Shown here: positions 48,004 through 64,000 of the stretch, piece after piece
How the letters are laid out: each line of letters starts with the position of its first letter
Position numbering within the stretch: position 1 is the stretch's first letter
NCBI GenBank assembly: GCA_963789615.1
Contig: CAWBLI010000005.1
Span: forward strand, 1,454,309 to 1,518,308
Length of the DNA: 64,000 nt
Source of the DNA: an uncultured Actinomycetota bacterium
GTDB lineage: Bacteria; Actinomycetota; Actinomycetes; JAFAQI01
Direction of reading: 5' to 3'
Notes under the pieces: model-generated
What the model was told of the DNA's origin: nothing
Database searches by the model: none
The model's input: only the letters and a program-made list of their open reading frames with translations
Program-made: the position numbers and the translations under genes

Positions 48004-48061
48004 GCGACAGGCTCGCTGGGCTGGCGGGCCCATCCGTGGGCCTAGCGTGGGGGTGAGTCGC

Positions 48062-49018: not shown

Positions 49019-49037
49019 GCTGACCAGGACATCACGG

Positions 49038-49655: not shown

Positions 49656-49674
49656 GCCCGGGACGCTATCGGGG

Positions 49675-50753: not shown

Positions 50754-50790
50754 CGAATGGTTGCCCCGTCGTACCGATTCCCTCGAAGGG

Positions 50791-51651: not shown

Positions 51652-51686
51652 GCCCGTACGGTAGCGGGGCACGGCATGATGGTCGC

Positions 51687-52664
51687 GTGAAGCTGCTTGT
51701 CACAGGCGGTGCCGGTTTCATCGGCTCCCACCTGGTCCGGACCCTGTTGACCGACGGCTACCCGGCGTACCAGGGCGTGGAGGTGACCGTCTACGACAAG
51801 CTGACGTACGCCGGAAACGTCGCGAACCTCTCGCCGGTCATCTTCAGCGACCGCTACCACTTCGTGCACGGCGACATCCTCGACAGCAAGCTGCTGGACG
51901 AGGTGCTGCCGGGTCACGACGCCGTGCTCAACCTCGCCGCCGAGTCCCACGTCGACCGGTCGATCACGGGCGGGGCGGAGTTCGTCATGACGAACGCGGT
52001 CGGGGTCCAGACCCTGCTCGACGCCTGCCTGCGTGCCGGGATCCCTCGCGTCGTACAGGTGTCGACCGACGAGGTGTACGGGTCGATCCCCGAGGGGTCG
52101 TTCACCGAGACCACCCTGCTCGAGCCCAACTCGCCGTACGCCGCTGCGAAGGCCGCCGGTGACCTGATCGCGCGCTCCTACGTCGTGACGCACGGGCTCG
52201 ACGTGGTCGTGACGCGATGCACCAACAACTACGGGCCCTACCAGTACCCCGAGAAGCTGATCCCGCTGTTCGTGACGAACCTGTTCGATGCGTTGAAGGT
52301 GCCCTTGTACGGCGACGGGCTCAACGTGCGCGACTGGCTCCACGTCGACGACCACTGCCGCGCCCTGATGCTCGTCCTCGACAAGGGCCGGGCCGGCGAG
52401 ATCTACAACATCGGCGGCGGCACCGAGCTGGCCAACCGCGACCTCACCGAGCGGCTGCTCGCCGCGTGCGGCGCCGACTGGTCGTCGGTGACACCGGTCG
52501 AGGACCGCAAGGGCCACGACCGGCGGTACTCCCTCGACGACTCCAAGCTGCGTGCGGAGCTCGGCTACGCGCCGCAGATGGACTTCGACGCCGGCCTGGC
52601 CGCGACGGTGCAGTGGTACCGCGACAACGAGTCCTGGTGGCGACCCCTGAAGTCCCCCGCGTAG
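51687..52664 (+). CDS. rmlB: dTDP-glucose 4,6-dehydratase
   Basis: [17 protein letters not shown] ... VSTDEVYG ... YAAAKAAGD (TDE and YxxxK motifs). Confidence 0.95.
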
Positions 52665-52690: not shown

Positions 52691-53560
52691 ATGACGCGCT
52701 GGCTGGTGACCGGCGCCGGGGGGCAGCTCGGGACCGACGTCGTCGACGTGCTCCGCGTCTACCGCGCCGACGTCGTCGCCGCTGACCACGCGATGCTCGA
52801 CATCACCGACCCCGACGCCGTCGACGGCGTGCTGCTCGGCGCCGCTCCAGACGTCGTCGTGAACTGCGCCGCCTACACCGACGTCGACGCCGCCGAGACG
52901 AACGAAGGCGCCGCCAGACGCCTCAACACGGTCGGCCCCGGCCTGCTCGCACAGTGGTGCGCACGCCACCGCGCCCGGCTGATCCACGTCTCGACCGACT
53001 ACGTGTTCTCGGGCGACGCCGAGGCACCGTACGACGAAAACGCACCCACCCAGCCGCGATCGGCGTACGGAAGAACCAAGGCCGGTGGCGAGCGCGCGGT
53101 AGCGGCCGCCGGCGGCGACTGCCACGTCGTCCGCACCGCCTGGGTGTACGGCGCCTCCGGCCGCAACTTCGTCAAGACCATCGCCCGGCTGGCCGGCGAG
53201 CGCGAGACGCTCGACGTGGTCGATGACCAGCTCGGCTCGCCGACCTGGTCGCTGCACCTCGCCCGCGCGCTGGTCGCACTGAGCGTCGAGGACGTCCCGC
53301 CGGGCATCTGGCACTGCACCGGCGCCGGCGAGGCGACCTGGTGCGGGCTGGCCCGCGCCGTCCTCGCCGAGATGGGCATGGACCCCGCCCGCGTCAGGGC
53401 GACGACGTCCGAGGCGTTCCGCCGCCCGGCGCCGCGACCGTCGTACTCCGTGCTGTCCGACCGGCGGTGGATCGAGGCCGGGCTACCGACGATGGCGCAC
53501 TGGCGGGACGCCCTGCACGAGGCGTTCCTTGCCGTCGGCGAGGAACTGGTCGGTCGATGA
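52691..53560 (+). CDS. rmlD: dTDP-4-dehydrorhamnose reductase
   Basis: MTRWLVTGAGGQLG ... VSTDYVFSG ... YGRTKAGGE. Confidence 0.9.
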   Translation: MTRWLVTGAGGQLGTDVVDVLRVYRADVVAADHAMLDITDPDAVDGVLLGAAPDVVVNCAAYTDVDAAETNEGAARRLNTVGPGLLAQWCARHRARLIHVSTDYVFSGDAEAPYDENAPTQPRSAYGRTKAGGERAVAAAGGDCHVVRTAWVYGASGRNFVKTIARLAGERETLDVVDDQLGSPTWSLHLARALVALSVEDVPPGIWHCTGAGEATWCGLARAVLAEMGMDPARVRATTSEAFRRPAPRPSYSVLSDRRWIEAGLPTMAHWRDALHEAFLAVGEELVGR

Positions 53561-54327
53561 GCCGATACGCGACCATCGTCCTGCGCGCCTACGGCCGGAC
53601 CGTCGGCATCACCGGGCCCGACACCGCCCTCGGCATCGTCCGCGACCGGCTTCCCCCGTCGTACCGGCCGTCAGCTGACGAGCCGGAGCGGCAGTGGCGG
53701 ATCGGAGTCCGCGGCGGGTTGTTCCGCGCCGACAACGACAGCGACCAGCTCGCGCTCGTCGACAACGTCGTGACCGCGAGCGAGATCGTGCTGAGCGACC
53801 TCGAGCTGTGGGTCGCCGAGCACGCCCGGCGCCACATCTTCGTCCACGCCGGCTGCGTCGTCATCGACGACCGCGCGATTCTCATCCCCGGCCGCAGCAT
53901 GAGCGGCAAGACCAGCCTCACCGCGGCGCTGATCCGCGCCGGGGCGACGTACTGGTCGGACGAGTACGCCGTTCTCGACTCCAGCGGGCAGGTGCGGCCC
54001 TACTCCCGGCGGCTGGCGATCCGACCGTACGACGGCGGACCCCCGCATCGCATGACCGCGACGGATGTCGGCGGCGCCGTGGGTCGCGGGGCGCGACCGG
54101 TCGGGCTGGTCGTCGTGCTGCGCTACGACGCCGGCGCCGGGTGGAACGTCCGGCCGCTGACCCGCGGCCAGGCGGTGCTTCAGCTGCTCGACAACACGAT
54201 CCCGGCCCGGAGCCGGCCCCGCGCGGTGCTGTCGGCGCTGGACCGGGCCACCCAGCACGCGCAGTGCCTGGCCGGCACCCGCGGCGACGCCGACGCCACC
54301 GCCGAACTGATCCTCGCCAAACTCTGA
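53558..54327 (+). CDS. HprK-related serine kinase (HPr kinase C-terminal-domain homolog; HprK-related kinase A/B type)
   Basis: P-loop LIPGRSMSGKTSLTAALIRAG followed by the Asp-rich catalytic region WSDEYAVLD. ATG overlaps the rmlD stop (ATGA). Confidence 0.6.
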
Positions 54328-54424
54328 AACCCGGGGGCGAACCTGCCGATAGCGCCTAGGTGTCCCGTCTTCCTGCCGTGCGTGCCGTTCCCGGCCGACG
54401 GCTTCCCGCCGCATCGGCGACGAC

Positions 54425-55381
54425 GTGGTGCTCTACGACCGTGACGACCACGACGTCCACCTGCTGACCGGCCCGGTCGCAGCGGTCTGGCGCCGCCTGG
54501 AAGGCGACTCGGACGCCCCCGACATCTCCCCGACCGAGCACGACGCCGCGGTGCAGCACCTGCTCGACCTCGGCGTCGTCGTCCCGGTCGGAGGCGACGA
54601 CGGCATCAGCCGCCGCCGGCTGCTGCAGCGCGGCGCCCTCGTCGCCGCCGGCGGTGTCGTGGCGCTGCCGCTGATCGAGTCGATCAGCGCCCCGGCCGCG
54701 TTCGCCGGCTGCTCGTCCGCCGGCTCGATGACCTATGACCTGGTGTCGTCGTTCGGATCCGGCGTGACGTCGAAGAACGCCGCCGTCCCGAACGCGCCGA
54801 CCTTCGTCTGCGGCGGCACCAACGTCACCGGCACCCGGACCGGCAACAACGCGATCGGTCCGTTCAGCTTCACCTTCACCCCGCGGGCAAGCGACGGCTG
54901 CACCGTGGGCGGCAAGGGGATCGGCGACCCGCCAACCTGGGGCCTGGTCTACAACGGCACCGGCGGCGCTGGGAAGCAGTTCATCGACCCGGTCACCGGC
55001 TACAACGACTACGTCGGGTACGCCGCCGGCACCACCGGGCCGCTGCAGCTGACACCGGACACGGCGCACGACGTCGGCATCCGCTTCGACCGGCAGTGCT
55101 CGACGGTCGCGAGCTCGTCGGCGTTGCTTACCTTCAGCCTGACCAACACCTCCGCCAGCAACGTCACCATCGGCTTCGACAAGCTGACCTCCGTGACGGC
55201 GACCAACAACGGCGTCGCCACGACCGGCCTCGGACCGTTCACGCTGGCAGCCGGGAAGAAGCTGGTCGGAACCGCCACCGCGACGCTGACCGCCGCCACG
55301 CCGTACTTCCAGGTCTACGCGGACTGGACCGCCGGCACCAACCAGCCGATCACCGTCACGACGTTCACCGTCACCGTCTGA
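54425..55381 (+). CDS. PqqD/RRE-like domain fused to Tat/lipobox-like segment and secreted Thr/Gly-rich beta-rich domain (paralog 1)
   Basis: VVLYDRDDHDVHLLTGPVAAVWRRLEGDSD...AAVQHLLDLGVV is a PqqD-like wHTH. SRRRLLQRGALVAAGGVVALPLIESISAPAAFAGCSS follows, then about 210 aa T/G/S-rich ending TVTTFTVTV. GTG start; no in-frame start nearer the RRR. Confidence 0.55.
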   Translation: MVLYDRDDHDVHLLTGPVAAVWRRLEGDSDAPDISPTEHDAAVQHLLDLGVVVPVGGDDGISRRRLLQRGALVAAGGVVALPLIESISAPAAFAGCSSAGSMTYDLVSSFGSGVTSKNAAVPNAPTFVCGGTNVTGTRTGNNAIGPFSFTFTPRASDGCTVGGKGIGDPPTWGLVYNGTGGAGKQFIDPVTGYNDYVGYAAGTTGPLQLTPDTAHDVGIRFDRQCSTVASSSALLTFSLTNTSASNVTIGFDKLTSVTATNNGVATTGLGPFTLAAGKKLVGTATATLTAATPYFQVYADWTAGTNQPITVTTFTVTV

Positions 55382-55486
55382 GCCCATGGCCGCGGTCGCC
55401 ACGACCTTCACAGCGCTGCGGCGCTCGACTCAGCTCTGGCTGGCCTGTGGTCTCTCGCGCTGCTGCTGCTCGGCCTGACCGCCGAG

Positions 55487-56020
55487 GTGCTCCACAGCGG
55501 CTGGGTGGTCAGCATCGACCGCCACATCCAGCTGCAGGTGTTCCTGCACCAGCATCGCGGGCTCCGCGACGCCGCGAACGTCCTGACCTGGTTGGGCGAC
55601 CCGGCCACGGTCGTCGTCGTGGTCGTGTTGTCGACGGTGGTTCTCGCCGTACGCCGGGACTGGGTCCGCGCCGTCGCGCTGCCGGTCGCCGTCGTCGCCG
55701 CGCTTTTGGTGGGCCAGGTGGTGCGGCACGCGATCGGCCGCAGCTCGCCGACCTTCGGCTCGCACCTGCACGTGCCGGGCGGCGACTCGTACCCGTCGGG
55801 GCACGCACTCGGCGCGGCGCTGTGCCTGGCGGCCGTGGCGATCGCGGTACGACGGCGATGGGTGAGCTGGGCGGCGGCCGTCATCGCCGTACTGGTCGCC
55901 GTCGCCCGGGTGTATCTGTTCGCGCACTTCACCAGCGACGTCATCGCCAGCCTGCTCGCGGCGGCCGTCGTCGTCACCGCCGTCGAGGCGGTCGCCGAGA
56001 TGACAGCCGAGCGAACCTAG
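55487..56020 (+). CDS. PAP2-family (phosphatidic acid/undecaprenyl-pyrophosphate phosphatase-like) membrane protein; N-terminus possibly extended to 55386 through a frameshift
   Basis: Conserved PSGH and SR...H phosphatase motifs (PSGHALGAA ... ARVYLFAHFTSDV). Upstream in-frame TM helix lacks a start codon, while ATG 55386 is in the -1 frame. Confidence 0.55.
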   Translation: MLHSGWVVSIDRHIQLQVFLHQHRGLRDAANVLTWLGDPATVVVVVVLSTVVLAVRRDWVRAVALPVAVVAALLVGQVVRHAIGRSSPTFGSHLHVPGGDSYPSGHALGAALCLAAVAIAVRRRWVSWAAAVIAVLVAVARVYLFAHFTSDVIASLLAAAVVVTAVEAVAEMTAERT

Positions 56021-57489
56021 TAGGCCCCGTCGCGCAGGATCACGGCGAAGAACGTCTTCCACAGGATCATCAGGTCCATCGCGAACGACCAGTTCTCGAC
56101 GTAGTACAGGTCGAGGCGGACGCTGTCCTCCCAGCTCAGGTCGGAGCGGCCGGACACCTGCCACAGGCCGGTGATGCCGGGGCGGACCAGCAGCCGGCGC
56201 GCGACGTCGGAGCCGTACTCCGCGACCTCGCTGGGCAGCGGCGGGCGCGGGCCGACGATCGCCATGTCGCCCTTGACGACGTTCCACAGCTGCGGCAGCT
56301 CGTCGAGCGACCACTTGCGCAGCAGGGCACCGAACCGCGTCACCCGCGGGTCGGCACGCATCTTGAACAACAGCCCGTCGGCGGCTTCGTTCTGCTCGCG
56401 CAGCGTCTCCAGCAACGCCTCGGCGTCGGAGCGCATGGTCCGCAGCTTGTAGACCGTGAACTCGCGGCCGTGCTTGCCAACCCGGGTCTGCCTGAACAGC
56501 GGTGCGCCCGGACTGTCGATCCGGATCATCAGCGCGAGCGCGCCGAGCACCGGCAGCATCAGCACGAACGCGATCGTCGCGGTCACCCACTCGAACGTCG
56601 CCTTCACCCGCGGCCGCAGCCCGACCAGGTCCGGCTCGTCGACGTGCAGCAGCGGCAGGCCCGCGACCGGGCGGATGTTGATGCGCGGCCCGGCGACGTC
56701 GGTGAGTGCCGGCGCGACGACCAGGTCGACCCCGGTGCCCTCGAGCTCCCACGACAGGTGCCGCAGCACGAGCGGCGACATGCCGGGCCCGGAGGCGACA
56801 GCAACGGTGTCGGCCTGCGACGCCTTCACGGCCTCGAGCACCTGGGTGAGCGATCCCAGGACAGGCAGGCCGTTCTCGAGCGCGCGACCCGGTCCGGGAG
56901 CGGGCACGCAGACACCGACGACGCGGAAGCCGGCATGAGGCACCCGGCCGAGCTCGTGGGCGAGCTGCGAGACGTTCTGCGCACCACCGACCGCGAGCAC
57001 CCGGTGCTGGTAGCGCCCGAAGGCACGCTGGTGATGCAGCCAGCGACGGGCGGCGTACCGGCCGAGCAGCAGCAGCAGGGTGCCGAGCGGCAGCGCGATC
57101 GCGACGTAGCCGCGGGCCAGCTGGATCTGGAAGATGTAGCAGATGACGGCGGCGCTGGCGCCCAGTCGGAACGACGCTGCACCGACCCGCTTGAACTCCT
57201 CAGCGCCGGTCCCGAGGTAGCGCATCTCATAGGCGCGGCCGACGACGAGCATCAGCAACCAGACCGGGACGACGAGCAGGCTGACCGCCAGGTAGGACAG
57301 GCCGTGGATGGCGGAGCCGTCGTTGGCGCCGAACCGGGCGCGGAACGCGATGAGCGTGCTGACGAGGACGATGAAGGTGTCGATCGAGACCAGGATCCGG
57401 CGGTACTGCAGCTGCCAGTCCGCGGTCCCGACCAGCGGAAGCAGGGTTTCCGCGGGCGGGGTGCTGGTGACGTCGTGACCGCGCTGCAT
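56017..57489 (-). CDS. WbaP-like undecaprenyl-phosphate hexose-1-phosphate transferase (polyprenyl glycosylphosphotransferase, priming enzyme)
   Basis: N-terminal TM bundle. C-terminal bacterial sugar transferase domain ...LFRQTRVGKHGREFTVYKLRTM...LDELPQLWNVVKGDMAIVGPRP. Confidence 0.85.
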   Translation of the reverse strand: MQRGHDVTSTPPAETLLPLVGTADWQLQYRRILVSIDTFIVLVSTLIAFRARFGANDGSAIHGLSYLAVSLLVVPVWLLMLVVGRAYEMRYLGTGAEEFKRVGAASFRLGASAAVICYIFQIQLARGYVAIALPLGTLLLLLGRYAARRWLHHQRAFGRYQHRVLAVGGAQNVSQLAHELGRVPHAGFRVVGVCVPAPGPGRALENGLPVLGSLTQVLEAVKASQADTVAVASGPGMSPLVLRHLSWELEGTGVDLVVAPALTDVAGPRINIRPVAGLPLLHVDEPDLVGLRPRVKATFEWVTATIAFVLMLPVLGALALMIRIDSPGAPLFRQTRVGKHGREFTVYKLRTMRSDAEALLETLREQNEAADGLLFKMRADPRVTRFGALLRKWSLDELPQLWNVVKGDMAIVGPRPPLPSEVAEYGSDVARRLLVRPGITGLWQVSGRSDLSWEDSVRLDLYYVENWSFAMDLMILWKTFFAVILRDGAY

Positions 57490-57654
57490 GGCGCTGGTAC
57501 GGGCGTCGTCGGCCAGGGTCACGGTCTCCCTTCCGATCCGTCCGCGTCGAGAGTTCAGGTTAGGACCGGCGGTCCGGCCTGTCAGACACTTTGGCAACGT
57601 TGTAGGCGTAAGTTCAGTAACCCATTCGGCCTAACAGGCAGCCATCTTGAGGAG

Positions 57655-58842
57655 ACTTCGCTGAGCCGGCTCAAGATCCTTCTGGTGGATCATGTCGCAC
57701 GGCTCTCCGGCGGCGAGATCGCGCTCGCCCGCGTGCTTCCCACGCTCGCGCACGATGTCGACATCCACGTCGTTCTGGGCGAGGAGGGCCCGCTCGTCGC
57801 TCGACTCCGCGAGGCCGGCATCCAGGTCGAGGTCATGCCGCTCGCGGCGGCCGCCCGCGACACCCGCAAGGACACCGTGACGGCGACCGGCGTACCGCTC
57901 GGCGCCGCCTGGGCCACCTCGTCGTACGTGTGGGCGCTGCGACGACGGATCCGCGCGCTCCGACCGGACATCGTGCATACCAACTCCCTCAAGTCCGCCG
58001 TGTACGGCGGGCTGGCCGGCCGGGCTGCCGGCGTACCGGTGCTCTGGCACATCCGCGACCGCATCGCGACCGACTACCTGCCGGCCAGCGCGGTTCGGAT
58101 GATCCGCGGCGCGGCCGGGGTGCTCCCGACCGCGATGGTGACTCCCTCGCGCACCACCATGGACACGATGCCGGGACGGCGGCCGGTGATACGTGCTGTC
58201 GTCCCCGATTCTGTTGAACTGCCTAGTGTCGACGTCTCGGACGCTTCATCGGAGGCGTCGGGGGTTCCCGACGACGTCGCCGACGGGCCTCACCCGTTCC
58301 GGATCGGGATGGTCGGGCGGCTGGCGGAGTGGAAGGGCCAGCACATCGCGATCGAGGCGTTCGCGCGGGCGTTTCCGGATGGCGACGCGCAGCTGTGGTT
58401 GGTCGGCGAGGCGATGTTCGGGGAGTCGGTGTACGTCGACCGGCTGCGCCGGCAGATCGACGCGCTCGGGCTCGGCGACCGGGTCGAGCTCCGCGGCTTC
58501 CGTGACGACGTCTGGTCGGAGCTCGCCCGGCTGGACGTCCTCGTGCACGCCTCGACCAGCCCGGAGCCGTTCGGCCAGGTCGTTCTCGAGGGGATGGTGT
58601 ACGGGCTCCCGGTCATCGCGGCAGCGCCCGGTGGGCCGGCCGAGATCATGGTCGACGAGGTCGACGGGCTGCTGGTGCCGGCGGGATCGGTGGCCGCGTT
58701 GGCGGCGGCTCTCGAACGGCTCGCGTCGGACTCCGGGCTGCGCGACCGGCTGGGGCAAAGCGCCCGAATCACCGCAGCGCGGTACACACCGGCCAGAACC
58801 GCCTCCGGTCTGCTGAGCGTGTATCGGCGGATGGTCGATTAA
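57655..58842 (+). CDS. GT4 family glycosyltransferase
   Basis: ...HIRDRIATDY... and C-terminal EPFGQVVLEGMVYGLPVIAAAPGGPAEIMVDEVDGLLV (E-x7-E motif region). Start codon uncertain (CTG/TTG about 57652-57661). Confidence 0.75.
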   Translation, partial: TSLSRLKILLVDHVARLSGGEIALARVLPTLAHDVDIHVVLGEEGPLVARLREAGIQVEVMPLAAAARDTRKDTVTATGVPLGAAWATSSYVWALRRRIRALRPDIVHTNSLKSAVYGGLAGRAAGVPVLWHIRDRIATDYLPASAVRMIRGAAGVLPTAMVTPSRTTMDTMPGRRPVIRAVVPDSVELPSVDVSDASSEASGVPDDVADGPHPFRIGMVGRLAEWKGQHIAIEAFARAFPDGDAQLWLVGEAMFGESVYVDRLRRQIDALGLGDRVELRGFRDDVWSELARLDVLVHASTSPEPFGQVVLEGMVYGLPVIAAAPGGPAEIMVDEVDGLLVPAGSVAALAAALERLASDSGLRDRLGQSARITAARYTPARTASGLLSVYRRMVD

Positions 58843-58932
58843 GACACCCCTCGCCCGCACCGATGCCTCTCTGGAGTCAGAAAGGACCGCTGCCCCTCTG
58901 GGCTTAGAGGAAGCTGCGCGAAAGGGGACCCG

Positions 58933-60288
58933 ATGTCGTCGACGGCACCGCGGCGCGTCCCCGGCGTGGTCGAGCGACCGATCGGCGACGAGATCGTCGC
59001 CTACGAGCCGGCGCAGGGCGCAGCGCATGTCCTGCGTGGCATCACGGCCACGGTCTGGCGCTGCTGCGACGGTGACCGCGACCTCCCGGCGATCGCCGTC
59101 GCCAACGGCCTGAGCCTCGACGACGTCGTCGCCGCGGTCGACGAGCTGGAGTCGGCGGGTCTGCTGTTCGGCGTACCCGGGGGGATCGACCGGCGACGGC
59201 TGCTGCAACGCGGCATGCTGCTCGGCGGTGCGGTCGCGGGCGTCATGAGCATCGAGTCGATCCTGGCGCCGCTGCCGTTCGCGGCTGCCAGCACGCCGGT
59301 GACGATCATCAACCGGGCGATCGCGGGGACCGTCACGGGCACCATCCCGAAGGGCTTCCTGACGCTGCACTTCACGATCATCGGTGGGGGCGGCGGCGGC
59401 AGCTACTCGCAGGGCACGTTCGTCAGCGGCGCCGGCGGCGACGCGTCGTCGATCACCGGGTCGATCACCCTCGCGTCCAACCCGAGCGGCACCGTGGTCA
59501 CCGCGGTCGTGGGGGCCGGCGGCGCGGGAGGCGTCTCGACGCCGGGAGTGGTGGCGGGCGGGTCTGGCTTCGGCAACGGCGGCAGCGCCAACACGGCTGG
59601 CCCCGGCGGAGGCGGAACCGCGATAACCATCGGCGGCCAGGCGATCGTCGTCTCCGGTGGCGGTGGCGGTGGCGGCCGGTCTTTCGTCAACGACGACAGC
59701 ACCGGTGGCATCGGTGGTGACGCCGGCGACGCCGCGCTGACCAATGTCGCGGACCCGGGGTCGGGTGGCGGTGCGTCGAACGACGGCAACTTCGCCGGTG
59801 GCGGCGGTGGCGGTGGCCAGACCAGCGGCGGTGGCGTGGCTTCGGGTGGTGCGGGTGGCGCCGGCGGCCCGGCTCCGACCGGGCGCGGGATCACGGGTGG
59901 CAAGAAGGGCGTGGCTGGCTCGGTCGGCACCGCGGGCACGGCGGCGGCGGGTGGCAATGGCGGGGCCGGCGGCACCGGCGGCTTTGGCGGGACCGCGGTC
60001 GAGAACGCCTACGCAAGCGGTGGCGGCGGTGGCGGCGGCTGGGGTGGCGGCGGTGGCGGCGGCGAGGGCGGCAACAACGGCCAGTCCGCAGGCTCCGGCG
60101 GTGGCGGCGGTGGCGGCGGCTCCAACTACACGAATGGCCGGACCGGATTCACCGTGGCGATCGCGTCGATCGGGGATGTCGTCGGGTCCGGCAACGGCGC
60201 CGGTGGTGCAGGCGGCGTGTCGACCGCGTCCGGCGGAGCCGGCAACCCGGGCCAGCCCGGCTACGCGATCGTCAGCTACAGCCCCTGA
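58933..60288 (+). CDS. PqqD/RRE-like domain fused to Tat-like segment and secreted Gly-rich repeat domain (paralog 2)
   Basis: VERPIGDEIVAYEPAQGAAHVLRGITATVWRCCDGDRDLPAIAVANGLSLDDVVAAVDELESAGLLF is a full PqqD-like fold. DRRRLLQRGMLLGGAVAGVMSIESILAPLPFAAAS follows, then about 330 aa of GGxGG-type Gly-rich repeats ending YAIVSYSP. Confidence 0.55.
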   Translation: MSSTAPRRVPGVVERPIGDEIVAYEPAQGAAHVLRGITATVWRCCDGDRDLPAIAVANGLSLDDVVAAVDELESAGLLFGVPGGIDRRRLLQRGMLLGGAVAGVMSIESILAPLPFAAASTPVTIINRAIAGTVTGTIPKGFLTLHFTIIGGGGGGSYSQGTFVSGAGGDASSITGSITLASNPSGTVVTAVVGAGGAGGVSTPGVVAGGSGFGNGGSANTAGPGGGGTAITIGGQAIVVSGGGGGGGRSFVNDDSTGGIGGDAGDAALTNVADPGSGGGASNDGNFAGGGGGGGQTSGGGVASGGAGGAGGPAPTGRGITGGKKGVAGSVGTAGTAAAGGNGGAGGTGGFGGTAVENAYASGGGGGGGWGGGGGGGEGGNNGQSAGSGGGGGGGGSNYTNGRTGFTVAIASIGDVVGSGNGAGGAGGVSTASGGAGNPGQPGYAIVSYSP

Positions 60289-60305
60289 TCTTGCCCGCCG
60301 CCCGC

Positions 60306-60396
60306 CCCCACCAATGGCCCATTGGTGTTGCTATAGCCCCACCAATGGGCCATGCGTGTTGCTATAGCCCCACCAGTGGGCCATGCGTGTGGGGGG
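60306..60396. repeat. family P palindromic element, three tandem units of about 31 bp
   Basis: ccccaccaatggcccattggtgttgctatag / ccccaccaatgggccatgcgtgttgctatag / ccccaccagtgggccatgcgtgtggggggttag. Each unit contains the palindrome CACCAATGG-CCATTGGTG. Fills the convergent gap 60289-60396. Confidence 0.7.
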
Positions 60397-61686
60397 TTAG
60401 CGGCGGGTGAGGTCGGCGAGCGCCCCGAAGGCGCGGCCGACCCGCGGCTGGTCTCGCAACACGGGTACGGCGAATGGCCGCTGCTGGCCGTCTCCGGTCA
60501 CGGCCGGTGCACCGAACTCCGAACGTGCCGCGGCCCGCGACCCCGACCCGGCACGAGCGGCATGCGGCACCGAGCCGGCGGCGACGGCGCGGGCGTAGAG
60601 ATCCGCCTGCCGGGCAGCCACGACATCCCACTGCTTGTCCCGGGCGGCGGCGATGCCGCGCTGCCGCAACGCCTCCCACTCGACCGGGTCCTGGCCGAGC
60701 CGAGCGACGGCGCGCGCCAGCCCCACCCGGTCGCCCTCCGCCGAGAGCCAGGCGCCACCGGCCGCCACCTCGGGGATGGTCCCGCTGGCATATCCGGCGA
60801 CGGCCGCGCCGCACGCCTGCGCCTCGACGACGCCGCGCCCGAACTGCTCCACCCAGCGGCTGGTCGCCTGGCTCGGTACGACGACGACGTGGCTGCCGCG
60901 GTAGATCTCGGCCAGCGAGCTCTCGTCGGCCCACGGCAGCAGGTCGACGTGGCCGGTCACCCCCCACTTCGACGCGAGCTCGGGGATCCGCGCCGCCTCC
61001 GGGCCGGACCCGACCACCACCAGCCGGGCGTCGCGGTGCCGGCGTACCTCGGCCAGGACCTCGACCGCGTCGGCGACGCCCTTCTCCGGCACCAGCCGCC
61101 CGGCGAGCGCCAGCCGGAACAACTCGTCGGCGTGCTGCTGGTGACCCGGCGAGAACACGCCCGGGTCGTGACCGAGCGGCAACACCTCGATCAGCCCGGC
61201 GTAGCCACGACCGCGGACCACCGACGCGGCCTGCCGCGAGCAGGGCGCGATCGCGCTCAACCGTCCGAACGCCTGCCGCTCCCACGAGGTGTACGGCGGC
61301 GGGTAGCGCTTGTCGAGGTTCTGCGCCGTGTAACCGACCGCCGGCGTCCCGACTGGCAGCGCCGCGAGGACCTGATGCGTGACCGCGCTGAACGGTTCCT
61401 CGTGCAGGTCCACCAGATCCGGAGCCACCCGGCGGATCACAGCGACCAGCGCGGCTGGATCGGCGTACCGATGGCGGTTGACGTCACCAGCGCGGCTCAC
61501 CGGCAGTGAGACGACCTCGAACGGCTCATCGGAGAGCGTCGACTCGGAGCCGGACTCCGGCCACGACGACGGGACCACGAGCACGACGTCGACGCCGGCA
61601 GCGACCAGCGCGCGTTCCCGCGCGCGGTGCGACCGGTCGCGTCCGGCGTGGTAGATCCGCAGGACGCGCAGCCGCTGCTCACCCAC
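60397..61686 (-). CDS. GT4 family glycosyltransferase
   Basis: ...VVVGSGPEAARI... GT4 fold with C-terminal ...VVPSQATSRWVEQFGRGVVEAQACGAAVAGYASGTIPEV. Confidence 0.75.
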   Translation of the reverse strand: MGEQRLRVLRIYHAGRDRSHRARERALVAAGVDVVLVVPSSWPESGSESTLSDEPFEVVSLPVSRAGDVNRHRYADPAALVAVIRRVAPDLVDLHEEPFSAVTHQVLAALPVGTPAVGYTAQNLDKRYPPPYTSWERQAFGRLSAIAPCSRQAASVVRGRGYAGLIEVLPLGHDPGVFSPGHQQHADELFRLALAGRLVPEKGVADAVEVLAEVRRHRDARLVVVGSGPEAARIPELASKWGVTGHVDLLPWADESSLAEIYRGSHVVVVPSQATSRWVEQFGRGVVEAQACGAAVAGYASGTIPEVAAGGAWLSAEGDRVGLARAVARLGQDPVEWEALRQRGIAAARDKQWDVVAARQADLYARAVAAGSVPHAARAGSGSRAAARSEFGAPAVTGDGQQRPFAVPVLRDQPRVGRAFGALADLTRR

Positions 61687-62368
61687 CCGAGCACGCTACC
61701 GATCGGTCGGGGTCAGGATCCGGTCCGCACCGCGGCGAGGAGGACGAGGACGAGGACGACGCATCGTCGAGCCGCAGCGCCGGGATCGTGACGTGCGTGA
61801 TCGGGCCGATGGCGACCGCGTAGAGCACCGTGCCCACGCCGACGGTCCCGCCCAGCAACCAGCCGGTGACCAGCACGCAGGCCTCGATCACGGTGCGGAC
61901 CACCCGCACCGAATGTCCGCGCGCCGCGATGCCCGTGGTGAGGCCGTCGCGCGGGCCAGGGCCGAGCCCGGCTCCGATATAGGCGCCGGTCGCGATCCCG
62001 TTGAGTCCGACAGCTCCCACCAGTACGACGATCCGCCACCACAGCGCGTGCGGCGTCGGCACGTAGTCAAGCGTGGCGTTGATGACCACGCCGACGACCG
62101 CCACATTGCAGACGGTGCCCAGGCCGGGCCGCTGCCGCAGCGGGATCCAGCCGAGCAGGACGACAGCGCCCACGAGGATCGCCCAGGTTCCGACCTGCAG
62201 CCCGAAAGTGCGCGACAACCCCTGCTGCAGCACGTCCCACGGGTCGACCCCGAGCCCAGCCAGCAGCAGCAAGCCGTCGCTGAACCCGTACAGCGCAAGG
62301 CCCGCGAACAGCAGCGCGACCCGGGCGGGTCGGCGCGAGGCGGGGACCGGCGCGAGCAGCAACACCAC
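61679..62368 (-). CDS. YczE/YitT-like integral membrane protein
   Basis: LLFAGLALYGFSDGLLLLAGLGVDPWDVLQQGLSRTFGLQVGTW is the YczE family N-terminus. About 6 TM helices. Poly-Ser C-terminal tail. Confidence 0.55.
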   Translation of the reverse strand: MVLLLAPVPASRRPARVALLFAGLALYGFSDGLLLLAGLGVDPWDVLQQGLSRTFGLQVGTWAILVGAVVLLGWIPLRQRPGLGTVCNVAVVGVVINATLDYVPTPHALWWRIVVLVGAVGLNGIATGAYIGAGLGPGPRDGLTTGIAARGHSVRVVRTVIEACVLVTGWLLGGTVGVGTVLYAVAIGPITHVTIPALRLDDASSSSSSSSPRCGPDPDPDRSVACSGG

Positions 62369-62421
62369 GCCACGGTGTCACGTCGGCGCGATCCGCCGGT
62401 CTCGCCGCCCGGCGTGATGTA

Positions 62422-63390
62422 TTGGCAGGCGCCATGCTCACCGACGTCCTCGCCGACTCGACCGCCGCGCCCGACGACCTGGCGCGCGACGGTGTCGCGC
62501 TGCTTGCCGCGCATTTGCTGGTCGGGCGGCTGGACGAGCGGCAGCGTCGGACCCTGATCGAAGCGGCGATGCCGTGGACCCTCGCGACGATGACCTCGGA
62601 GATCGCCGCCCGCGACGCCAGCGCCACCCTCAGCGAAGCCGGCATCGACCACGCGGTCATCAAGGGGCCGATCCTCGCGGCGGCCTGGCGCGAGACGTTC
62701 GGCAGCGACGTCCGGACCTACACCGACGTCGACATCCTGGTACGCCGGTCCGACGTACCCGCGGTCACCCAGCGACTGGTTTCTGAGCTCGGCGCGACCG
62801 AGTCGGTGAGGTCGGTCGGCGAGATCGGCTTCGGGCTGCCCAGCGGCGCCGCCATCGACCTGCACTGGCTCCTCATCAACGACGAGGGCGTGGTCGCACG
62901 GCACCGGCTCGACACCGACGACCTGCTGCGCCGGGTCCGCACCGACGGTCCGCTACGCCAGCTCGACCCGGTCGACTCGGTGATCCACGTCAGCCTGCAC
63001 GCCGTCATCAGCGACGGCAGCCGGCTGGCGGCGGCCATCGACCTCGCCGCGCTGCTGCGCACCGGCGACATCGATCTGGACCTGCTGGTACGACGGGCCC
63101 ACCACCACCGCGCGGTACTGCCGCTGGCCGTCATGACCGACCGCGCCGCCGCCGTGACCGGCTTCGCCGAGGCGGTCGAGCTGGCCCGCCGGCTGCCCAG
63201 CTCGCCGTGGCGCACCGCCTGCCGGCGCTTTGCCGGGTCGGTGCGGCCGGCGAGCGGCCGACGCTGGACCGGCGGGGAGATGATCCGCGCGACCCGGTAC
63301 AGCACGCTGAGCTCGGTCGCCGCGGTGGTTGCCGCGCTGCCCACCAACGTGCGGACCCAGCGCGAGCTGCGTCGCGGGGCACTTCGGTGA
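62422..63390 (+). CDS. uncharacterised nucleotidyltransferase family protein (PF14907-like)
   Basis: ...HAVIKGPILAAAWRETFGSDVRTYTDVDILVRRSD ... DLHWLL matches the lasso-cluster-associated 'nucleotidyltransferase' family. hG[GS]-x9-13-Dh[DE]h pattern is present as KGP...DVDIL. Confidence 0.55.
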   Translation: MAGAMLTDVLADSTAAPDDLARDGVALLAAHLLVGRLDERQRRTLIEAAMPWTLATMTSEIAARDASATLSEAGIDHAVIKGPILAAAWRETFGSDVRTYTDVDILVRRSDVPAVTQRLVSELGATESVRSVGEIGFGLPSGAAIDLHWLLINDEGVVARHRLDTDDLLRRVRTDGPLRQLDPVDSVIHVSLHAVISDGSRLAAAIDLAALLRTGDIDLDLLVRRAHHHRAVLPLAVMTDRAAAVTGFAEAVELARRLPSSPWRTACRRFAGSVRPASGRRWTGGEMIRATRYSTLSSVAAVVAALPTNVRTQRELRRGALR

Positions 63391-64000
63391 CTCCGCCTCG
63401 GGTCGCGCTGGTGTCGCTGGAGCCCTGGGACCTGGTGTGGCGGCGCAACCAGCATCTGGTCGCCGAGCTGCTCGCGCAGCGGCTGGTCGCCTCGGTGGTG
63501 TTCATCGAGCCGCCGGCGGCGGGCCGACCGGCACCGGCGCGGTCCCCGCTGCCCGGGGTCACCGTGATCCGGCCGGTGCTGCCGGTCCCCCGTCGTACCG
63601 GTGGGCTCTCGGTGGTCGCTACCTGGCTGCGACGGCGGTGGCTGCGTGACGTCGACGTGCTGTGGGTCAACGACCCGGTGCTCGGCGCGCGGTGCTCCGA
63701 GGGCAGCCGAGCCCGGGTCGTGTACGACGTGACCGACGACTGGCGGTTCTCCGAGCAGCCGGCCCGACTCACCCGACGGCTCGTCGCCGCCGAGGACCGG
63801 CTCGCCGCGACCGCGGTGACCGTGGTCTGCAGCGACGTCCTCGCCGAGCGCTGGTCGCAGCGCTACGGCGTCGCCGCGGCCGTGGTCCACAACGCGGCCA
63901 CGCAACCGTCGTACGCCGCGGTCGCGCCGAGGCAGCTGCCGGGGAACGGCCTGCATGTCGGGTACGTCGGCACGCTGCACGAGGACCGGCTCGACATCGA
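63387..64000 (+). CDS. glycosyltransferase (GT4-like), 5' partial, continues beyond window end
   Basis: VTPPRVALVSLEPWDLVWRRNQHLVAELL...VVCSDVLAERW...HVGYVGTLHEDRLDI. Start overlaps the upstream stop (GTGA). Confidence 0.55.
   Translation, partial: MTPPRVALVSLEPWDLVWRRNQHLVAELLAQRLVASVVFIEPPAAGRPAPARSPLPGVTVIRPVLPVPRRTGGLSVVATWLRRRWLRDVDVLWVNDPVLGARCSEGSRARVVYDVTDDWRFSEQPARLTRRLVAAEDRLAATAVTVVCSDVLAERWSQRYGVAAAVVHNAATQPSYAAVAPRQLPGNGLHVGYVGTLHEDRLDI

What the first reader, a model, noticed from the sequence alone, without database searches (positions are those of the whole stretch)
53558..63390. HprK-related kinase, PqqD-like and PF14907 nucleotidyltransferase trio embedded in a surface-glycan cluster, with no lasso-peptide core
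A P-loop HPr-kinase-like protein is translationally coupled to rmlD. Two PqqD/RRE-like-domain proteins and an 'uncharacterised nucleotidyltransferase' (PF14907) sit within about 10 kb. They are interleaved with a WbaP-like priming transferase, two GT4 enzymes, a PAP2 phosphatase and YczE. HprK-like kinase, PqqD and this nucleotidyltransferase are an established co-occurring set in phosphorylated lasso-peptide clusters (paeninodin type). No precursor/B2 protease/C cyclase genes are present here, and the PqqD-like domains are fused to secreted low-complexity proteins. This suggests an uncharacterised pathway that recognises, phosphorylates or nucleotidylylates, and possibly glycosylates Tat-exported surface proteins. 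Alternatively it is a RiPP-like system whose leader is an RRE fusion.
Basis: partly seen in the sequence, partly recalled or inferred. Interest (0 to 1): 0.85.

Follow-up and report, generated by a model that had tools for sequence, protein, structure and literature searches.

The report
Secreted proteins carrying their own RRE
Two secreted proteins in this actinobacterial sugar-polymer locus begin with a built-in peptide-recognition (PqqD/RRE) domain followed by a twin-arginine export signal, and they sit with a serine-kinase-like enzyme and a nucleotidyltransferase; this cassette is widespread in uncultured soil bacteria and looks like an undescribed relative of the recently reported phosphorylated-peptide (LPP/lasso) pathways.

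Summary
Positions 53557-63390 encode an HprK-like P-loop kinase overlapping rmlD (ATGA), two paralogous proteins with an N-terminal PqqD/RRE fold, and a PF14907 nucleotidyltransferase. They are interleaved with PAP2, a WbaP-like transferase, GT4s and YczE. No lasso B2 or C genes are present.

Comparative work changes the picture. Both RRE proteins belong to a very large unnamed family (about 4,000-9,000 clusters at 50% identity). Members share an RRE domain, an invariant [S/T]-R-R Tat-like signal, an A-x-A cleavage motif and a conserved Ser/Thr at +2, followed by a hypervariable cargo. The cargo is usually a 26-109 aa peptide with an even number of cysteines. Here it is a Gly-rich domain and a putative lipoprotein domain.

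Of 80 genomes from several phyla that carry the kinase, 52 have both a leader protein and the NTase within 3 kb. A minimal three-gene operon exists without any glycan genes.

The closest known system is the Bacillota LPP/paeninodin module (discrete RRE, HprK-like kinase, NTase), published in 2026. Here the RRE is fused to the substrate, and no dedicated peptidase or exporter is present.

The chemistry (phosphorylation, then sugar or nucleotide addition at the +2 Ser) is inferred, not shown. The glycan embedding is lineage-specific.

The parts
52691..53560 (+). rmlD (dTDP-4-dehydrorhamnose reductase). Its stop overlaps the kinase start (ATGA).
   Evidence: PF04321, 316 bits; overlap read directly from the sequence. 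The same rmlD-kinase overlap occurs in syntenic locus L002.
53557..54327 (+). HprK-like P-loop kinase, 256 aa. Invariant family motifs: FVHAG, PGRSxSGK(S/T) (Walker A) and SDE.
   Evidence: TIGR04352 E=8e-14, 51 bits, below the 200 cut-off. Invariant columns in A1/A3. AF2 pLDDT 94. Foldseek matches PEPCK at E=3e-6 and HprK/P 3tqf/1kkl at E about 6e-4. The profile aligns H..GxxxxGKS..D(D/E) to the Coxiella HprK.
54425..55381 (+). RRE-Tat-leader protein 1, 318 aa as called. RRE-like domain, S62-R63-R64, h-region, A-F-A-G|C96-S97 (a lipobox-like junction), then a 220-aa beta-rich cargo with 4 Cys. The true start may be GTG 54360, with a 1-nt indel near 54390.
   Evidence: 42% identity to the leader of protein 2. 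Leader HMM 69.8 bits. TIGR01409 Tat signal 14.0 bits against a 16.7 cut-off at aa 61-83. Orthologues are 337-353 aa. DNA read.
54713..54715 (+). Codon of Ser97 of protein 1, the conserved +2 Ser/Thr after the predicted cleavage site and the candidate modification site.
   Evidence: Alignment A2 and column counts S68/T6 of 76.
55487..56020 (+). PAP2-family (undecaprenyl-diphosphatase-like) phosphatase. Glycan-locus context, not part of the conserved cassette.
   Evidence: PF01569, 47 bits. Absent from all 80 survey loci. Present in syntenic L002.
56017..57597 (-). WbaP-like polyprenyl glycosylphosphotransferase. Glycan-locus context.
   Evidence: TIGR03025, 418 bits against a 295.55 cut-off; PF02397, 218 bits.
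57685..58842 (+). GT4 glycosyltransferase. Context.
   Evidence: PF00534, 117 bits.
58933..60288 (+). RRE-Tat-leader protein 2, 451 aa. RRE fold at about aa 4-85, D86-R87-R88-R89-L-L, h-region, F-A-A|A-S120, then a 330-aa cargo that is 38% Gly.
   Evidence: AF2 and Foldseek match to lasso and other RREs. PF05402 E=0.0023 for the N-terminus. Cargo composition. hhalign probability 89.6%, E=1.9e-6 to PF12810-scoring Gly-rich domains.
59191..59196 (+). Twin-arginine codons (R87, R88) of protein 2.
   Evidence: RR is invariant in 76 of 76 non-redundant leaders. The residue before it is S/T in 71 of 76, and hydrophobic residues follow at +2/+3.
59290..59292 (+). Codon of Ser120 of protein 2, the conserved +2 Ser after A-x-A.
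60397..61686 (-). GT4 glycosyltransferase. Context.
   Evidence: PF00534, 86 bits.
61679..62368 (-). YczE membrane protein. Context; absent from syntenic L002.
   Evidence: NF052291, 235 bits against a 205 cut-off; L002 gene map.
62422..63390 (+). PF14907 (NTP_transf_5) nucleotidyltransferase, 322 aa, with a D-V-D catalytic motif in 'YTDVDILV'.
   Evidence: PF14907, 63.3 bits against a 31.2 cut-off. DxD is 69/69, and conserved KG, R, DLH, H and D columns are present.
63387..64000 (+). GT4-like glycosyltransferase, 5' part (runs off the window). Its start overlaps the NTase stop (GTGA).
   Evidence: PF13439 E=7e-6. Sequence read. The same NTase-GT overlap occurs in L002.
47119..52664 (.). Upstream context, syntenic with L002: GT2, BNR-repeat protein, rmlC, ECF sigma factor, rmlA, rmlB.

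Best explanation
The kinase, the PF14907 nucleotidyltransferase and the two RRE-leader proteins form one functional module. It is a cis-RRE, Tat-leader relative of the LPP/paeninodin peptide-tailoring system, and the two RRE-leader proteins are its substrates, not its chaperones.

Each substrate carries a cytoplasm-facing RRE domain, a twin-arginine signal peptide and an A-x-A signal-peptidase site. A conserved Ser follows two residues into the mature protein.

Proposed order of events:
1. In the cytoplasm, the built-in RRE recruits or positions the modifying enzymes.
2. The HprK-like kinase phosphorylates the junction Ser, by analogy with LppK on Ser3 of the LPP core.
3. The NTase extends the phosphate with a sugar or nucleotide, by analogy with PsmN. 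Here the donor is possibly dTDP-rhamnose or another product of the surrounding locus.
4. The Tat pathway exports the modified protein.
5. Signal peptidase I cleaves protein 2, and Lsp cleaves protein 1 at its lipobox-like junction. This releases an N-terminally decorated cargo.

Shown: the domain architecture, the conserved motifs and the gene linkage.
Inferred: the substrate role, the site of modification, its chemistry, the Tat route and the cleavage.
For: Architecture and fold.

Conserved leader with hypervariable cargo:
- RR in 76/76 leaders;
- A at -3 in 57/76 and at -1 in 65/76;
- S/T at +2 in 74/76;
- 68 of 81 cargos are 26-109 aa with at least 4 Cys, and 65 of those 68 have an even number of Cys.

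Linkage from the kinase side. Of 80 genomes in Actinomycetota, Acidobacteriota, Gemmatimonadota, Planctomycetota, Armatimonadota and others:
- 59 have a leader protein within 3 kb;
- 63 have the NTase within 3 kb;
- 52 have both;
- 46 of the 62 with full flanks have both.

Linkage from the leader side: the NTase is adjacent in 14 of 15 loci with full flanks.

Other support:
- A minimal operon, leader-GRD -> kinase (36% identical to the window's, E=2e-42) -> PF14907, carries no glycan genes.
- No other conserved neighbour and no conserved small ORF that could be a separate precursor.
- Up to four leader paralogues with different cargos occur per locus.
- Ser rather than Thr at +2 is enriched when a kinase is nearby: 81 S and 17 T with a kinase, 1 S and 6 T without (Fisher p=4e-4). 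This is not corrected for phylogeny.

Precedents:
- LppK polyphosphorylates Ser3 of a core beginning 'AQS'. LPP clusters hold an RRE, an HprK-like kinase and an NTase, and sit in capsule loci (PMC13381572).
- PsmN adds hexose to the phospho-Ser of pseudomycoidin through a DxD motif (PMC6993621).
- 'AQS' is also the commonest junction in this family.
Against: - No biochemical data exist for any member.
- The window proteins individually miss the curated cut-offs: TIGR04352 51 bits against 200, and PF05402 18.7 bits against 23.4.
- The AF2 model does not dock the signal segment onto the RRE; residues 95-140 have pLDDT below 50 with a 5-sequence alignment. What the cis RRE binds is therefore unknown.
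- The kinase is missing within 8 kb of 9 of 15 leader+NTase loci. Phosphorylation cannot be obligatory for the whole family.
- Thr is common at +2, yet LppK rejected Thr.
- Disulfide-rich peptides are unusual Tat cargos. Tat-signal models score only near threshold: TIGR01409 hits 4 of 35 members and PF10518 hits 1 of 35.
- In the window the three genes are spread over 10 kb rather than forming an operon.
- LppN was inactive in heterologous tests, so the chemistry of PF14907 enzymes remains uncertain.
Confidence: 0.6

Rival explanations
1. NTase-centred variant. The PF14907 enzyme is the primary, RRE-recruited modifier and acts directly on the +2 Ser/Thr hydroxyl, for example by O-nucleotidylylation or sugar-phosphate transfer. 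The HprK-like kinase is an optional accessory, either priming or regulatory, present only in some lineages including this one.
For: The NTase sits directly downstream of the leader gene in 14 of 15 leader-anchored loci, while the kinase is present in only 6 of 15. S/T at +2 is conserved with or without a kinase. The DxD catalytic motif is invariant. PsmN was modelled on aminoglycoside 2''-nucleotidyltransferases, which modify hydroxyl groups.
Against: In the only tested cases, PsmN-dependent products were seen only on phosphorylated peptide, and LppN was inactive. Kinase genes could lie elsewhere in those genomes. NTases from kinase-less loci do not form a clean separate clade.
Confidence: 0.2
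2. Glycan-pathway reading. The kinase and NTase are accessory enzymes of the surrounding rhamnose-containing polysaccharide locus, phosphorylating or nucleotide-activating a sugar or lipid-linked intermediate. The RRE-bearing proteins are unrelated surface proteins or membrane adaptors.
For: In the window, the kinase is translationally coupled to rmlD and the NTase to a GT, and both couplings are conserved in L002. L001 also sits among GT4s, a Bac_transf gene and a Wzz-type gene. LPP clusters likewise sit in capsule loci.
Against: Most kinase loci lack nearby glycan genes: GT4 in 9 of 80, WbaP in 3 of 80, and RmlA, RmlD and PAP2 in 0 of 80. The compact L003 operon has none. The only genes that travel with the kinase and NTase are the leader proteins.
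Confidence: 0.1
3. Trans-adaptor reading. The RRE-leader proteins are membrane-anchored adaptors whose cytoplasmic RRE binds a separate, unrecognised short precursor peptide, as LppB binds LppA. Their C-terminal domains are extracytoplasmic accessories, not the substrate.
For: All characterised RREs bind a leader in trans. The model did not dock the downstream segment onto the RRE.
Against: No small ORF of 20-75 aa is conserved across phyla beside the cassette. The hypervariable, even-Cys tails behind a conserved junction behave like cores or cargos, not accessories. Several paralogues with different tails occur per locus.
Confidence: 0.07
4. The trio is a remnant of a lasso-peptide cluster or a chance juxtaposition inside a polysaccharide locus.
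For: HprK-like kinase, PqqD and NTase are known from paeninodin-type lasso clusters.
Against: No B2 or C genes lie in 47-64 kb. The only weak Asn_synthase hit, 31 bits on a HAD fusion, is 50 kb away. The cassette is conserved across phyla without lasso genes.
Confidence: 0.02

Closest known systems
Linear polyphosphorylated peptide (LPP) clusters of Bacillota (Popov et al., Nat Commun 2026, PMC13381572)
   Same: - RRE/PqqD-fold recognition element, HprK-like kinase and uncharacterised NTP-transferase.
- Precursors with a conserved N-terminal part and highly variable C-termini of 35-200 aa.
- The modified Ser lies 2-3 residues after a signal-peptidase-type cleavage site ('AQS').
- Frequent embedding in polysaccharide loci.
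   Different: - In LPP the RRE is a discrete protein that binds a YxxP leader in trans. Here it is fused to the N-terminus of the substrate, and no YxxP motif is present.
- LPP has a dedicated SipW-like peptidase (LppS) and an MsbA-like exporter (LppD). Neither is found here; a twin-arginine signal takes their place.
- LPPs were described as restricted to Bacillota. This family is in Actinomycetota, Acidobacteriota, Gemmatimonadota, Planctomycetota and other phyla.
- Cargos here include whole domains of 220-330 aa.
- The kinase is often absent.
Paeninodin/pseudomycoidin-type lasso peptide tailoring (PadeK/PsmK kinase, PsmN nucleotidyltransferase; PMC8498205, PMC6993621)
   Same: An HprK-like Ser kinase paired with a DxD nucleotidyltransferase of the 'uncharacterised NTase' family, alongside a PqqD-family RRE. 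PsmN-dependent hexose is added on phospho-Ser.
   Different: There is no macrolactam synthetase (C), no B2 protease and no short lasso precursor. The lasso systems modify the C-terminal Ser, whereas the candidate site here is N-terminal in the mature cargo.
HPr-rel-A system models TIGR04352 (HprK-related kinase A) and TIGR04353 (PqqD_rel_X)
   Same: TIGR04352 is the best NCBIfam match for the kinase. TIGR04353 matches 23 of 35 leaders at E<=0.1, best 5e-7. That this system also pairs with a nucleotidyltransferase is my recollection and was not tested here.
   Different: Scores are far below the curated cut-offs: 51 bits against 200, and 19 bits or less against 35 for the sequences checked individually. 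TIGR04353 describes a discrete 74-residue chaperone, not a fusion to a signal peptide and cargo.
Long-leader RiPP precursors (nitrile-hydratase-like and Nif11-like leader peptides). Comparison from general knowledge, not tested here.
   Same: A protein-domain-sized conserved leader is joined to short hypervariable, often Cys-rich cores, with several paralogous precursors per locus.
   Different: Those leaders are not RRE folds and carry no Tat signal. Their maturation uses different enzymes and a dedicated peptidase-exporter.
Tat signal peptides and their proofreading chaperones (TorD/DmsD/NapD type). Functional analogy from general knowledge.
   Same: A cytoplasmic binding module is associated with a twin-arginine signal and could delay export until a cytoplasmic maturation step is finished. 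The leader profile weakly matches the Tat signals of AioB and MelC1.
   Different: Here the binding module is covalently fused upstream of the signal and has an RRE fold. The maturation step would be a covalent modification, not cofactor insertion.
ALK/LTK glycine-rich domain family (PF12810)
   Same: Relatives of protein 2 (P0122, P0123, L005) score PF05402 plus PF12810. Profile-profile comparison links the window-type Gly-rich cargo to them over 109 columns, probability 89.6%.
   Different: The window cargo does not itself score PF12810 even at E<=1, and BLASTP finds nothing.

Membership tests
LPP-type RiPP cluster (PMC13381572) | RRE (PqqD-fold) recognition element | tested here: met
   PF05402 in 32 of 35 family members. 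The profile hits TbiB1 and PqqD. The AF2 model matches TbiB1 with TM 0.73, and FusB1, PbtF, LynD and CteB RREs.
LPP-type RiPP cluster (PMC13381572) | RRE is a discrete protein that binds a [Y/W]xxP leader motif of a separate precursor | tested here: not met
   The RRE is fused in cis to the cargo. No YxxP motif is conserved in the leader. No conserved separate small ORF was found.
LPP-type RiPP cluster (PMC13381572) | HprK-like kinase | tested here: met
   TIGR04352 E=8e-14. Walker A, His and D(D/E) motifs are invariant. Foldseek matches HprK/P and PEPCK.
LPP-type RiPP cluster (PMC13381572) | Uncharacterised NTP-transferase (LppN/PsmN type) | tested here: inconclusive
   PF14907 is met (63 bits) and DxD is invariant. 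Neither the paper nor its supplements give a Pfam accession for LppN or PsmN, so identity of the family rests on the shared label 'uncharacterised NTP transferase'.
LPP-type RiPP cluster (PMC13381572) | Dedicated SipW-like signal peptidase (LppS) and MsbA-like exporter (LppD) | tested here: not met
   Every gene in 47-64 kb was scanned and none is a peptidase or ABC exporter. No further conserved neighbour appears in 80 loci.
LPP-type RiPP cluster (PMC13381572) | Kinase-dependent (poly)phosphorylation of a Ser just after the leader cleavage site | not testable with these tools
   Sequence only: S/T at +2 after A-x-A in 74 of 76 leaders, and 'AQS' junctions are common.
Lasso peptide biosynthetic cluster | Macrolactam synthetase C (Asn-synthase-like) and B2 cysteine protease | tested here: not met
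   Neither is found in the cluster. The only Asn_synthase hit is a weak 31 bits on a HAD fusion at 1214-2779.
TIGR04352 HprK-related kinase A (equivalog) | Whole-protein score at or above 200 bits | tested here: not met
   51.3 bits, local match to aa 83-155 only. The L003 homologue scores 46.9 bits.
TIGR04353 PqqD_rel_X (equivalog) | Score at or above 35 bits | tested here: not met
   No hit for either window protein. The L003 leader scores 19.4 bits. 23 of 35 family members hit at E<=0.1.
PF14907 NTP_transf_5 | Score at or above the gathering threshold of 31.2 bits | tested here: met
   63.3 bits, covering profile positions 61-246 of 249.
Twin-arginine (Tat) signal peptide | [S/T]-R-R-x-hydrophobic-hydrophobic motif, a moderately hydrophobic h-region and an A-x-A cleavage site | tested here: inconclusive
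   The motif is present: RR 76/76, S/T before it 71/76, hydrophobic residues at +2/+3, A-x-A. Curated models are only near threshold: TIGR01409 14.0 bits against 16.7 for protein 1, TIGR01409 in 4 of 35, TIGR02811 in 7 of 35, PF10518 in 1 of 35. The signal lies about 60-90 residues from the N-terminus, which is atypical. Export itself is not testable here.
PF12810 ALK_LTK_GRD (for the cargo of protein 2) | Score at or above 24.5 bits | tested here: not met
   No hit at E<=1. Only a profile-profile link to PF12810-scoring relatives, probability 89.6%.
Polyprenyl-phosphate-primed surface glycan locus | Priming phosphoglycosyltransferase, GTs and nucleotide-sugar genes | tested here: met
   TIGR03025, 418 bits against 295.55. 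Two GT4s plus a partial GT4-like gene, one GT2, and rmlA, B, C and D. No flippase or polymerase was seen within the window.

The most novel reading that the evidence does not exclude
The RRE + twin-arginine leader is a general 'modify-then-export' address tag. In this reading it defines a very large, unrecognised class of secreted peptides and proteins in soil phyla.

The precursor carries its own RiPP recognition element. That element recruits a PF14907 transferase, with or without an HprK-like kinase, to install a phospho-, nucleotidyl- or glycosyl group on the +2 Ser/Thr at the signal-peptidase junction before Tat export.

This would be the first RiPP-like system with the recognition element built into the substrate, and one able to decorate whole folded domains. 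In the window's lineage the decoration may be a phosphodiester link between the cargo and the rhamnose-containing glycan made by the surrounding genes.
Probability: 0.4. Interest if true: 0.85.

Novelty: new variant of a known kind. Interest (0 to 1): 0.72.

Why it matters
- It would give a candidate substrate and site to a widespread kinase family. That family has more than 1,190 clusters at 90% identity, almost all labelled only 'hypothetical protein' (about three in four have no source name at all), and more than 525 genome loci. The same applies to the 'uncharacterised nucleotidyltransferase' PF14907, whose chemistry is still unresolved even in the lasso and LPP systems.
- It would extend the 2026 LPP discovery from Bacillota to at least six other phyla, in a form that needs neither a separate RRE, nor a dedicated peptidase, nor an exporter.
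- It would show that an RRE can be part of the precursor itself. This bears on how genome-mining tools define RiPP precursors.
- It points to thousands of small disulfide-rich secreted peptides, some with knottin-like cysteine spacing, from uncultured Acidobacteriota and Solirubrobacterales as likely modified natural products.
- The short cargos make the hypothesis directly testable by co-expression and mass spectrometry.

Tried and rejected
- Short or low-complexity protein queries failed. A homologue search with the 125-aa leader found 1 hit, and the full Gly-rich protein found 2 hits, because word-based candidate selection was swamped. The two hits did reveal the PF05402+PF12810 architecture.
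- phmmer of the single leader against PDB sequences gave nothing significant. Only the family profile worked.
- PF12810 membership of the window's Gly-rich cargo was not supported directly.
It was repeated with 14 closer, mostly acidobacterial leaders, so the leader-anchored sample is taxonomically narrow.
- The all-against-all search for additional conserved neighbours returned only shadow ORFs of the NTase and clade-restricted clusters.
- The search for conserved small ORFs returned only Solirubrobacterales-specific overlapping frames.
- The NTase tree did not separate kinase-associated from kinase-less loci.
- hmmalign column extraction for S versus T failed because of end-of-model effects. 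It was redone by position.
- AF2 with a 5-sequence alignment gave no confident placement of the signal segment relative to the RRE.
- Literature searches for 'PF14907', 'HprK-related kinase', PqqD + twin-arginine, and PqqD + cysteine-rich + signal peptide found no description of the fused family.
- A lasso-cluster reading and a chance reading were rejected. See the rival explanations.

Full report
**Gene map and check of the observation**

The window is about 71% G+C, so many long ORFs are artefacts. Third-position GC and profile scans give this order:

| Coordinates | Strand | Gene |
|---|---|---|
| 47119-48003 | + | GT2 |
| 48062-49078 | - | BNR-repeat protein |
| 49038-50036 | - | rmlC |
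| 50208-50804 | - | ECF sigma factor |
| 50791-51672 | - | rmlA |
| 51687-52664 | + | rmlB |
| 52691-53560 | + | rmlD |
| 53557-54327 | + | HprK-like kinase (ATGA overlap with rmlD) |
| 54425-55381 | + | RRE-leader protein 1 |
| 55487-56020 | + | PAP2 |
| 56017-57597 | - | WbaP-like transferase |
| 57685-58842 | + | GT4 |
| 58933-60288 | + | RRE-leader protein 2 |
| 60397-61686 | - | GT4 |
| 61679-62368 | - | YczE |
| 62422-63390 | + | PF14907 NTase |
| 63387 onward | + | GT4-like gene (GTGA overlap with the NTase) |

The rest of the window is housekeeping: GroEL, glutamate dehydrogenase, an MprF-like gene, thiolase and others. Exact-sequence look-up places the window on a 1.89-Mb NCBI/ENA contig. 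The nearest named relatives are 'Mycobacteriales bacterium' MAGs. A metagenomic contig, L002, is syntenic gene for gene.

**The three protein families**

*Kinase.* Its best curated match is TIGR04352 (E=8e-14), but at 51 bits against a cut-off of 200 and only around the P-loop. Homologues are numerous: 1,190 clusters at E<=1e-5, none with a Pfam domain, and every name given by a source is 'hypothetical protein'. They share invariant FVHAG, PGRSxSGK(S/T) and SDE motifs. An AF2 model (pLDDT 94) matches ATP-dependent PEP carboxykinase over its whole length and HprK/P over the P-loop domain. This is the known PEPCK/HprK superfamily relationship.

*NTase.* It passes the PF14907 threshold. D-x-D is invariant in 69 of 69 relatives, along with KG, R, DLH, H and D columns.

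*The two 'PqqD-like' proteins.* They are paralogues over their first 100 or so residues (42% identity). Individually they score at or below threshold for PF05402. The family evidence is stronger:
- 32 of 35 non-redundant relatives hit PF05402.
- The family profile finds the lasso RRE TbiB1 (E=0.0018), PqqD, and weakly LppB (9x8z) in the PDB.
- The AF2 model of protein 2 residues 1-85 (pLDDT 84-91) has the strand-rich winged-helix topology. Its top Foldseek hits are all RiPP recognition elements: TbiB1 (TM 0.73), PbtF, FusB1, LynD/TruD, TigE, TbtB and CteB.

**Anatomy of the leader**

Aligning 76 non-redundant relatives shows, after the RRE:
- an invariant twin arginine (76/76), preceded by S/T (71/76) and followed by x-hydrophobic-hydrophobic-x-[R/K];
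- a Gly/Ala-rich hydrophobic stretch containing a conserved S-I-x-A-P;
- A at -3 (57/76) and A at -1 (65/76);
- Ser or Thr two residues after that (74/76);
- no conservation beyond this point.

The segment weakly matches the Tat signals of AioB and MelC1 and near-threshold Tat models.

In the window the relevant residues are:
- Protein 1: S62-R63-R64 and A-F-A-G|C96-S97. This junction also fits a lipobox.
- Protein 2: R87-R88 and F-A-A|A-S120.

**Comparative genomics**

*Kinase-anchored survey.* A pattern scan of one genome per species found more than 525 loci encoding kinase relatives. The best 80 come from Acidimicrobiia, Mycobacteriales, Solirubrobacterales, Acidobacteriota, Gemmatimonadota, Planctomycetota, Armatimonadota, Methylomirabilis and others, and all are MAGs. 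I built HMMs for the kinase, leader and NTase and scanned six-frame ORFs within 10 kb either side.

| Measure | Result |
|---|---|
| Loci with a leader protein within 3 kb of the kinase | 59 of 80 |
| Loci with an NTase within 3 kb | 63 of 80 |
| Loci with both | 52 of 80 |
| Both, among the 62 loci with at least 3 kb flanks | 46 |
| Neither, among those 62 | 7 |
| Leader hits more than 4 kb from the kinase | 4 of 78 |
| NTase hits more than 4 kb from the kinase | 1 of 69 |

No other gene family is conserved next to them. No small ORF is conserved across phyla.

*Minimal operon.* A distant contig (L003) carries a bare operon: PF05402+PF12810 leader protein, then a kinase 36% identical to the window's (E=2e-42), then PF14907. 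It has no glycan genes.

*Leader-anchored survey.* In a metagenome sample of mostly acidobacterial leaders, 14 of 15 loci with full flanks have the NTase directly downstream, but only 6 of 15 have the kinase within 8 kb. The tightest pair is therefore leader + NTase, and the kinase is frequent but not universal.

*Family size.* An exhaustive HMMER search with the leader profile found 8,949 representatives (clusters at 50% identity) at E<=1e-3 and 4,038 at E<=1e-10. Among the top 150, 141 have [S/T]RR and 144 have S/T at the junction, very often as 'AQS'.

**Cargo**

Of 81 non-redundant cargos in the first survey:
- 68 are 26-109 aa (median 56) with at least 4 Cys, and 65 of those have an even number of Cys;
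- 7 are Gly-rich domains of more than 150 aa, including window protein 2;
- 3 are other long domains, including window protein 1.

All 83 leaders in the metagenome sample carry even-Cys cargos. Several show the spacing C-x6-C-x5-CC-x3-C-x4-C. Solirubrobacterales loci have 2-4 leader paralogues with different tails.

The window's Gly-rich cargo does not score PF12810 itself. It is linked to PF12810-scoring relatives by profile-profile comparison (probability 89.6%, E=1.9e-6).

**What is known**

- HprK-like kinases phosphorylate the C-terminal Ser of paeninodin-type lasso precursors (PMC8498205).
- PsmN, an 'uncharacterised nucleotidyltransferase' with a catalytic DxD, is needed to add one or two hexoses to phospho-Ser of pseudomycoidin (PMC6993621).
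- In May 2026 Popov et al. (PMC13381572) described LPPs in Bacillota. [quoted passage not shown]
- LPP precursors are 35-200 aa with a conserved YxxP leader and variable C-termini.
- LppK polyphosphorylates Ser3 of a core that begins AQS. It does not accept Thr. Leader cleavage prefers the phosphorylated form.
- LppN was inactive heterologously.
- LPP clusters are embedded in capsule loci, and the family was described as restricted to Bacillota.
- I found no paper describing an RRE fused to a precursor with a Tat signal.

**Most likely mechanism**

*Shown:* the architecture, the conserved junction and the gene linkage.

*Inferred, in order:*
1. The leader proteins are the substrates.
2. Their own RRE positions the NTase, and the kinase where present, in the cytoplasm.
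3. The kinase phosphorylates the +2 Ser.
4. The NTase extends it with a sugar or nucleotide.
5. Tat exports the decorated protein.
6. Signal peptidase I, or Lsp for protein 1, removes the RRE-signal leader.

One hint supports the kinase-Ser link. With a kinase nearby the +2 residue is S 81 / T 17; in kinase-less loci it is S 1 / T 6 (Fisher p=4e-4). The result is confounded by phylogeny, and the difference is weaker within the metagenome set alone (S 12 / T 9 against S 1 / T 6).

*Unknowns:*
- What the cis RRE binds. The model left residues 95-140 unplaced.
- The chemistry of PF14907 enzymes.
- Whether RR truly means Tat, given disulfide-rich cargos.

**The glycan context**

In the window and L002 the kinase overlaps rmlD and the NTase overlaps a GT. 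L001 (Acidimicrobiaceae) is also surrounded by GT4s, a Bac_transf gene and a Wzz-type gene.

Across the 80 genomes the association is rare: a GT4 within 10 kb in 9, a WbaP-like gene in 3, and RmlA, RmlD, PAP2 and YczE in none. The embedding is therefore a feature of this actinobacterial lineage, echoing the capsule-locus embedding of LPPs. It is not part of the core system. It may supply donor sugars or reflect co-regulation. A covalent cargo-glycan link is possible but purely speculative.

**Rival explanations**

- An NTase-centred variant with an optional kinase is the main alternative (0.2).
- Glycan-pathway accessory enzymes (0.1).
- A trans-adaptor RRE that binds an unseen precursor (0.07).
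- A lasso remnant or chance juxtaposition (0.02).

The evidence for and against each is given in the Rival explanations section.

**Verdict**

The finding is best filed as a new variant of the RRE / HprK-like kinase / NTase tailoring systems: cis-RRE, Tat-type leader, no dedicated peptidase or exporter, protein-sized cargos, and many phyla. It fails the curated thresholds of TIGR04352 and TIGR04353 and lacks three defining LPP features (discrete RRE with YxxP, LppS, LppD). It works like an LPP system but is not a member of that family.

Interest is fairly high because the family is very large, unnamed and directly testable. It is tempered by the complete absence of biochemical evidence and by the recent publication of the trans-acting analogue.

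Noticed in passing
window 54353-54430: The 5' end of RRE-leader gene 1 looks frameshifted. The frame starting at GTG 54360 encodes '..LPAVRAVP..', matching the N-terminus of orthologues ('MPAVRPAS..'; 337-353 aa, against 318 aa here). The body of the gene is in the frame of GTG 54425. One extra C in the CCC run near 54390-54392 would join the two frames. This is either an assembly indel or a real truncation of the first RRE strand.
   Followed up: partly
L092, L105, L113, L141, L145, L153, L154, L157, L159 (leader at about 8000 in most): These are leader + PF14907 pairs with no HprK-like kinase within 8 kb. The NTase starts 0-4 nt after the leader gene. Neighbours vary: TPR+CBM_4_9 proteins, very large Peptidase_C25 proteins, and a DUF4214 protein. 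Most of these leaders have Thr rather than Ser at the +2 junction position.
   Followed up: partly
L049 10875-11366, L072 10663-11157, L080 9145-9666, L062 10696-11319, L035 9225-9827: Cargos of about 25-30 aa have the cysteine spacing C-x6-C-x5-CC-x3-C-x4-C, which resembles inhibitor-cystine-knot peptides. I did not test whether they fold as knottins.
   Followed up: no
L039, L043, L069, L077 (Solirubrobacterales), within about 6 kb of the kinase: Three or four leader paralogues per locus carry different 50-70 aa Cys-rich, Glu/Lys-rich cargos. They mostly lie on the strand opposite the kinase. A block upstream of the kinase is conserved in several overlapping frames in this clade only.
   Followed up: partly
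window 63387-63390 and L002 19165-19168: The NTase stop overlaps the start of a GT4-like gene (GTGA). This coupling is conserved in the syntenic locus and hints that, in this lineage, the NTase and a glycosyltransferase are made together.
   Followed up: partly
window 55096-58842 (+): This 1,248-aa ORF is a high-GC artefact. Its first two thirds run antisense to the WbaP-like gene, and only the last 385 codons (57685-58842) are a real GT4 gene. That gene has no canonical start codon right at the conserved 'LKILLV' N-terminus.
   Followed up: partly
window 1214-2779 (-): A 522-aa protein combines HAD-hydrolase domains with a weak Asn_synthase match (31.5 bits). It lies 50 kb from the cluster and is not a lasso cyclase candidate.
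   Followed up: no
window 50208-50804 (-); L002 5198-5734; L003 2597-3151: An ECF-type sigma factor lies next to or near the cassette in the window, in syntenic L002 and, about 7 kb away, in the minimal operon L003. It may be a regulator; I did not examine this.
   Followed up: no
L005 1683-4061: Three leader genes sit in tandem on a short contig. Two carry PF12810 Gly-rich cargos. The third is cut short after the RRE.
   Followed up: no
window 44522-47260 (-) and 40009-41490 (+): A GAF-PAS histidine kinase of 912 aa lies immediately upstream of the glycan locus, and a DUF4388 protein lies further upstream. No link to the cassette was tested.
   Followed up: no
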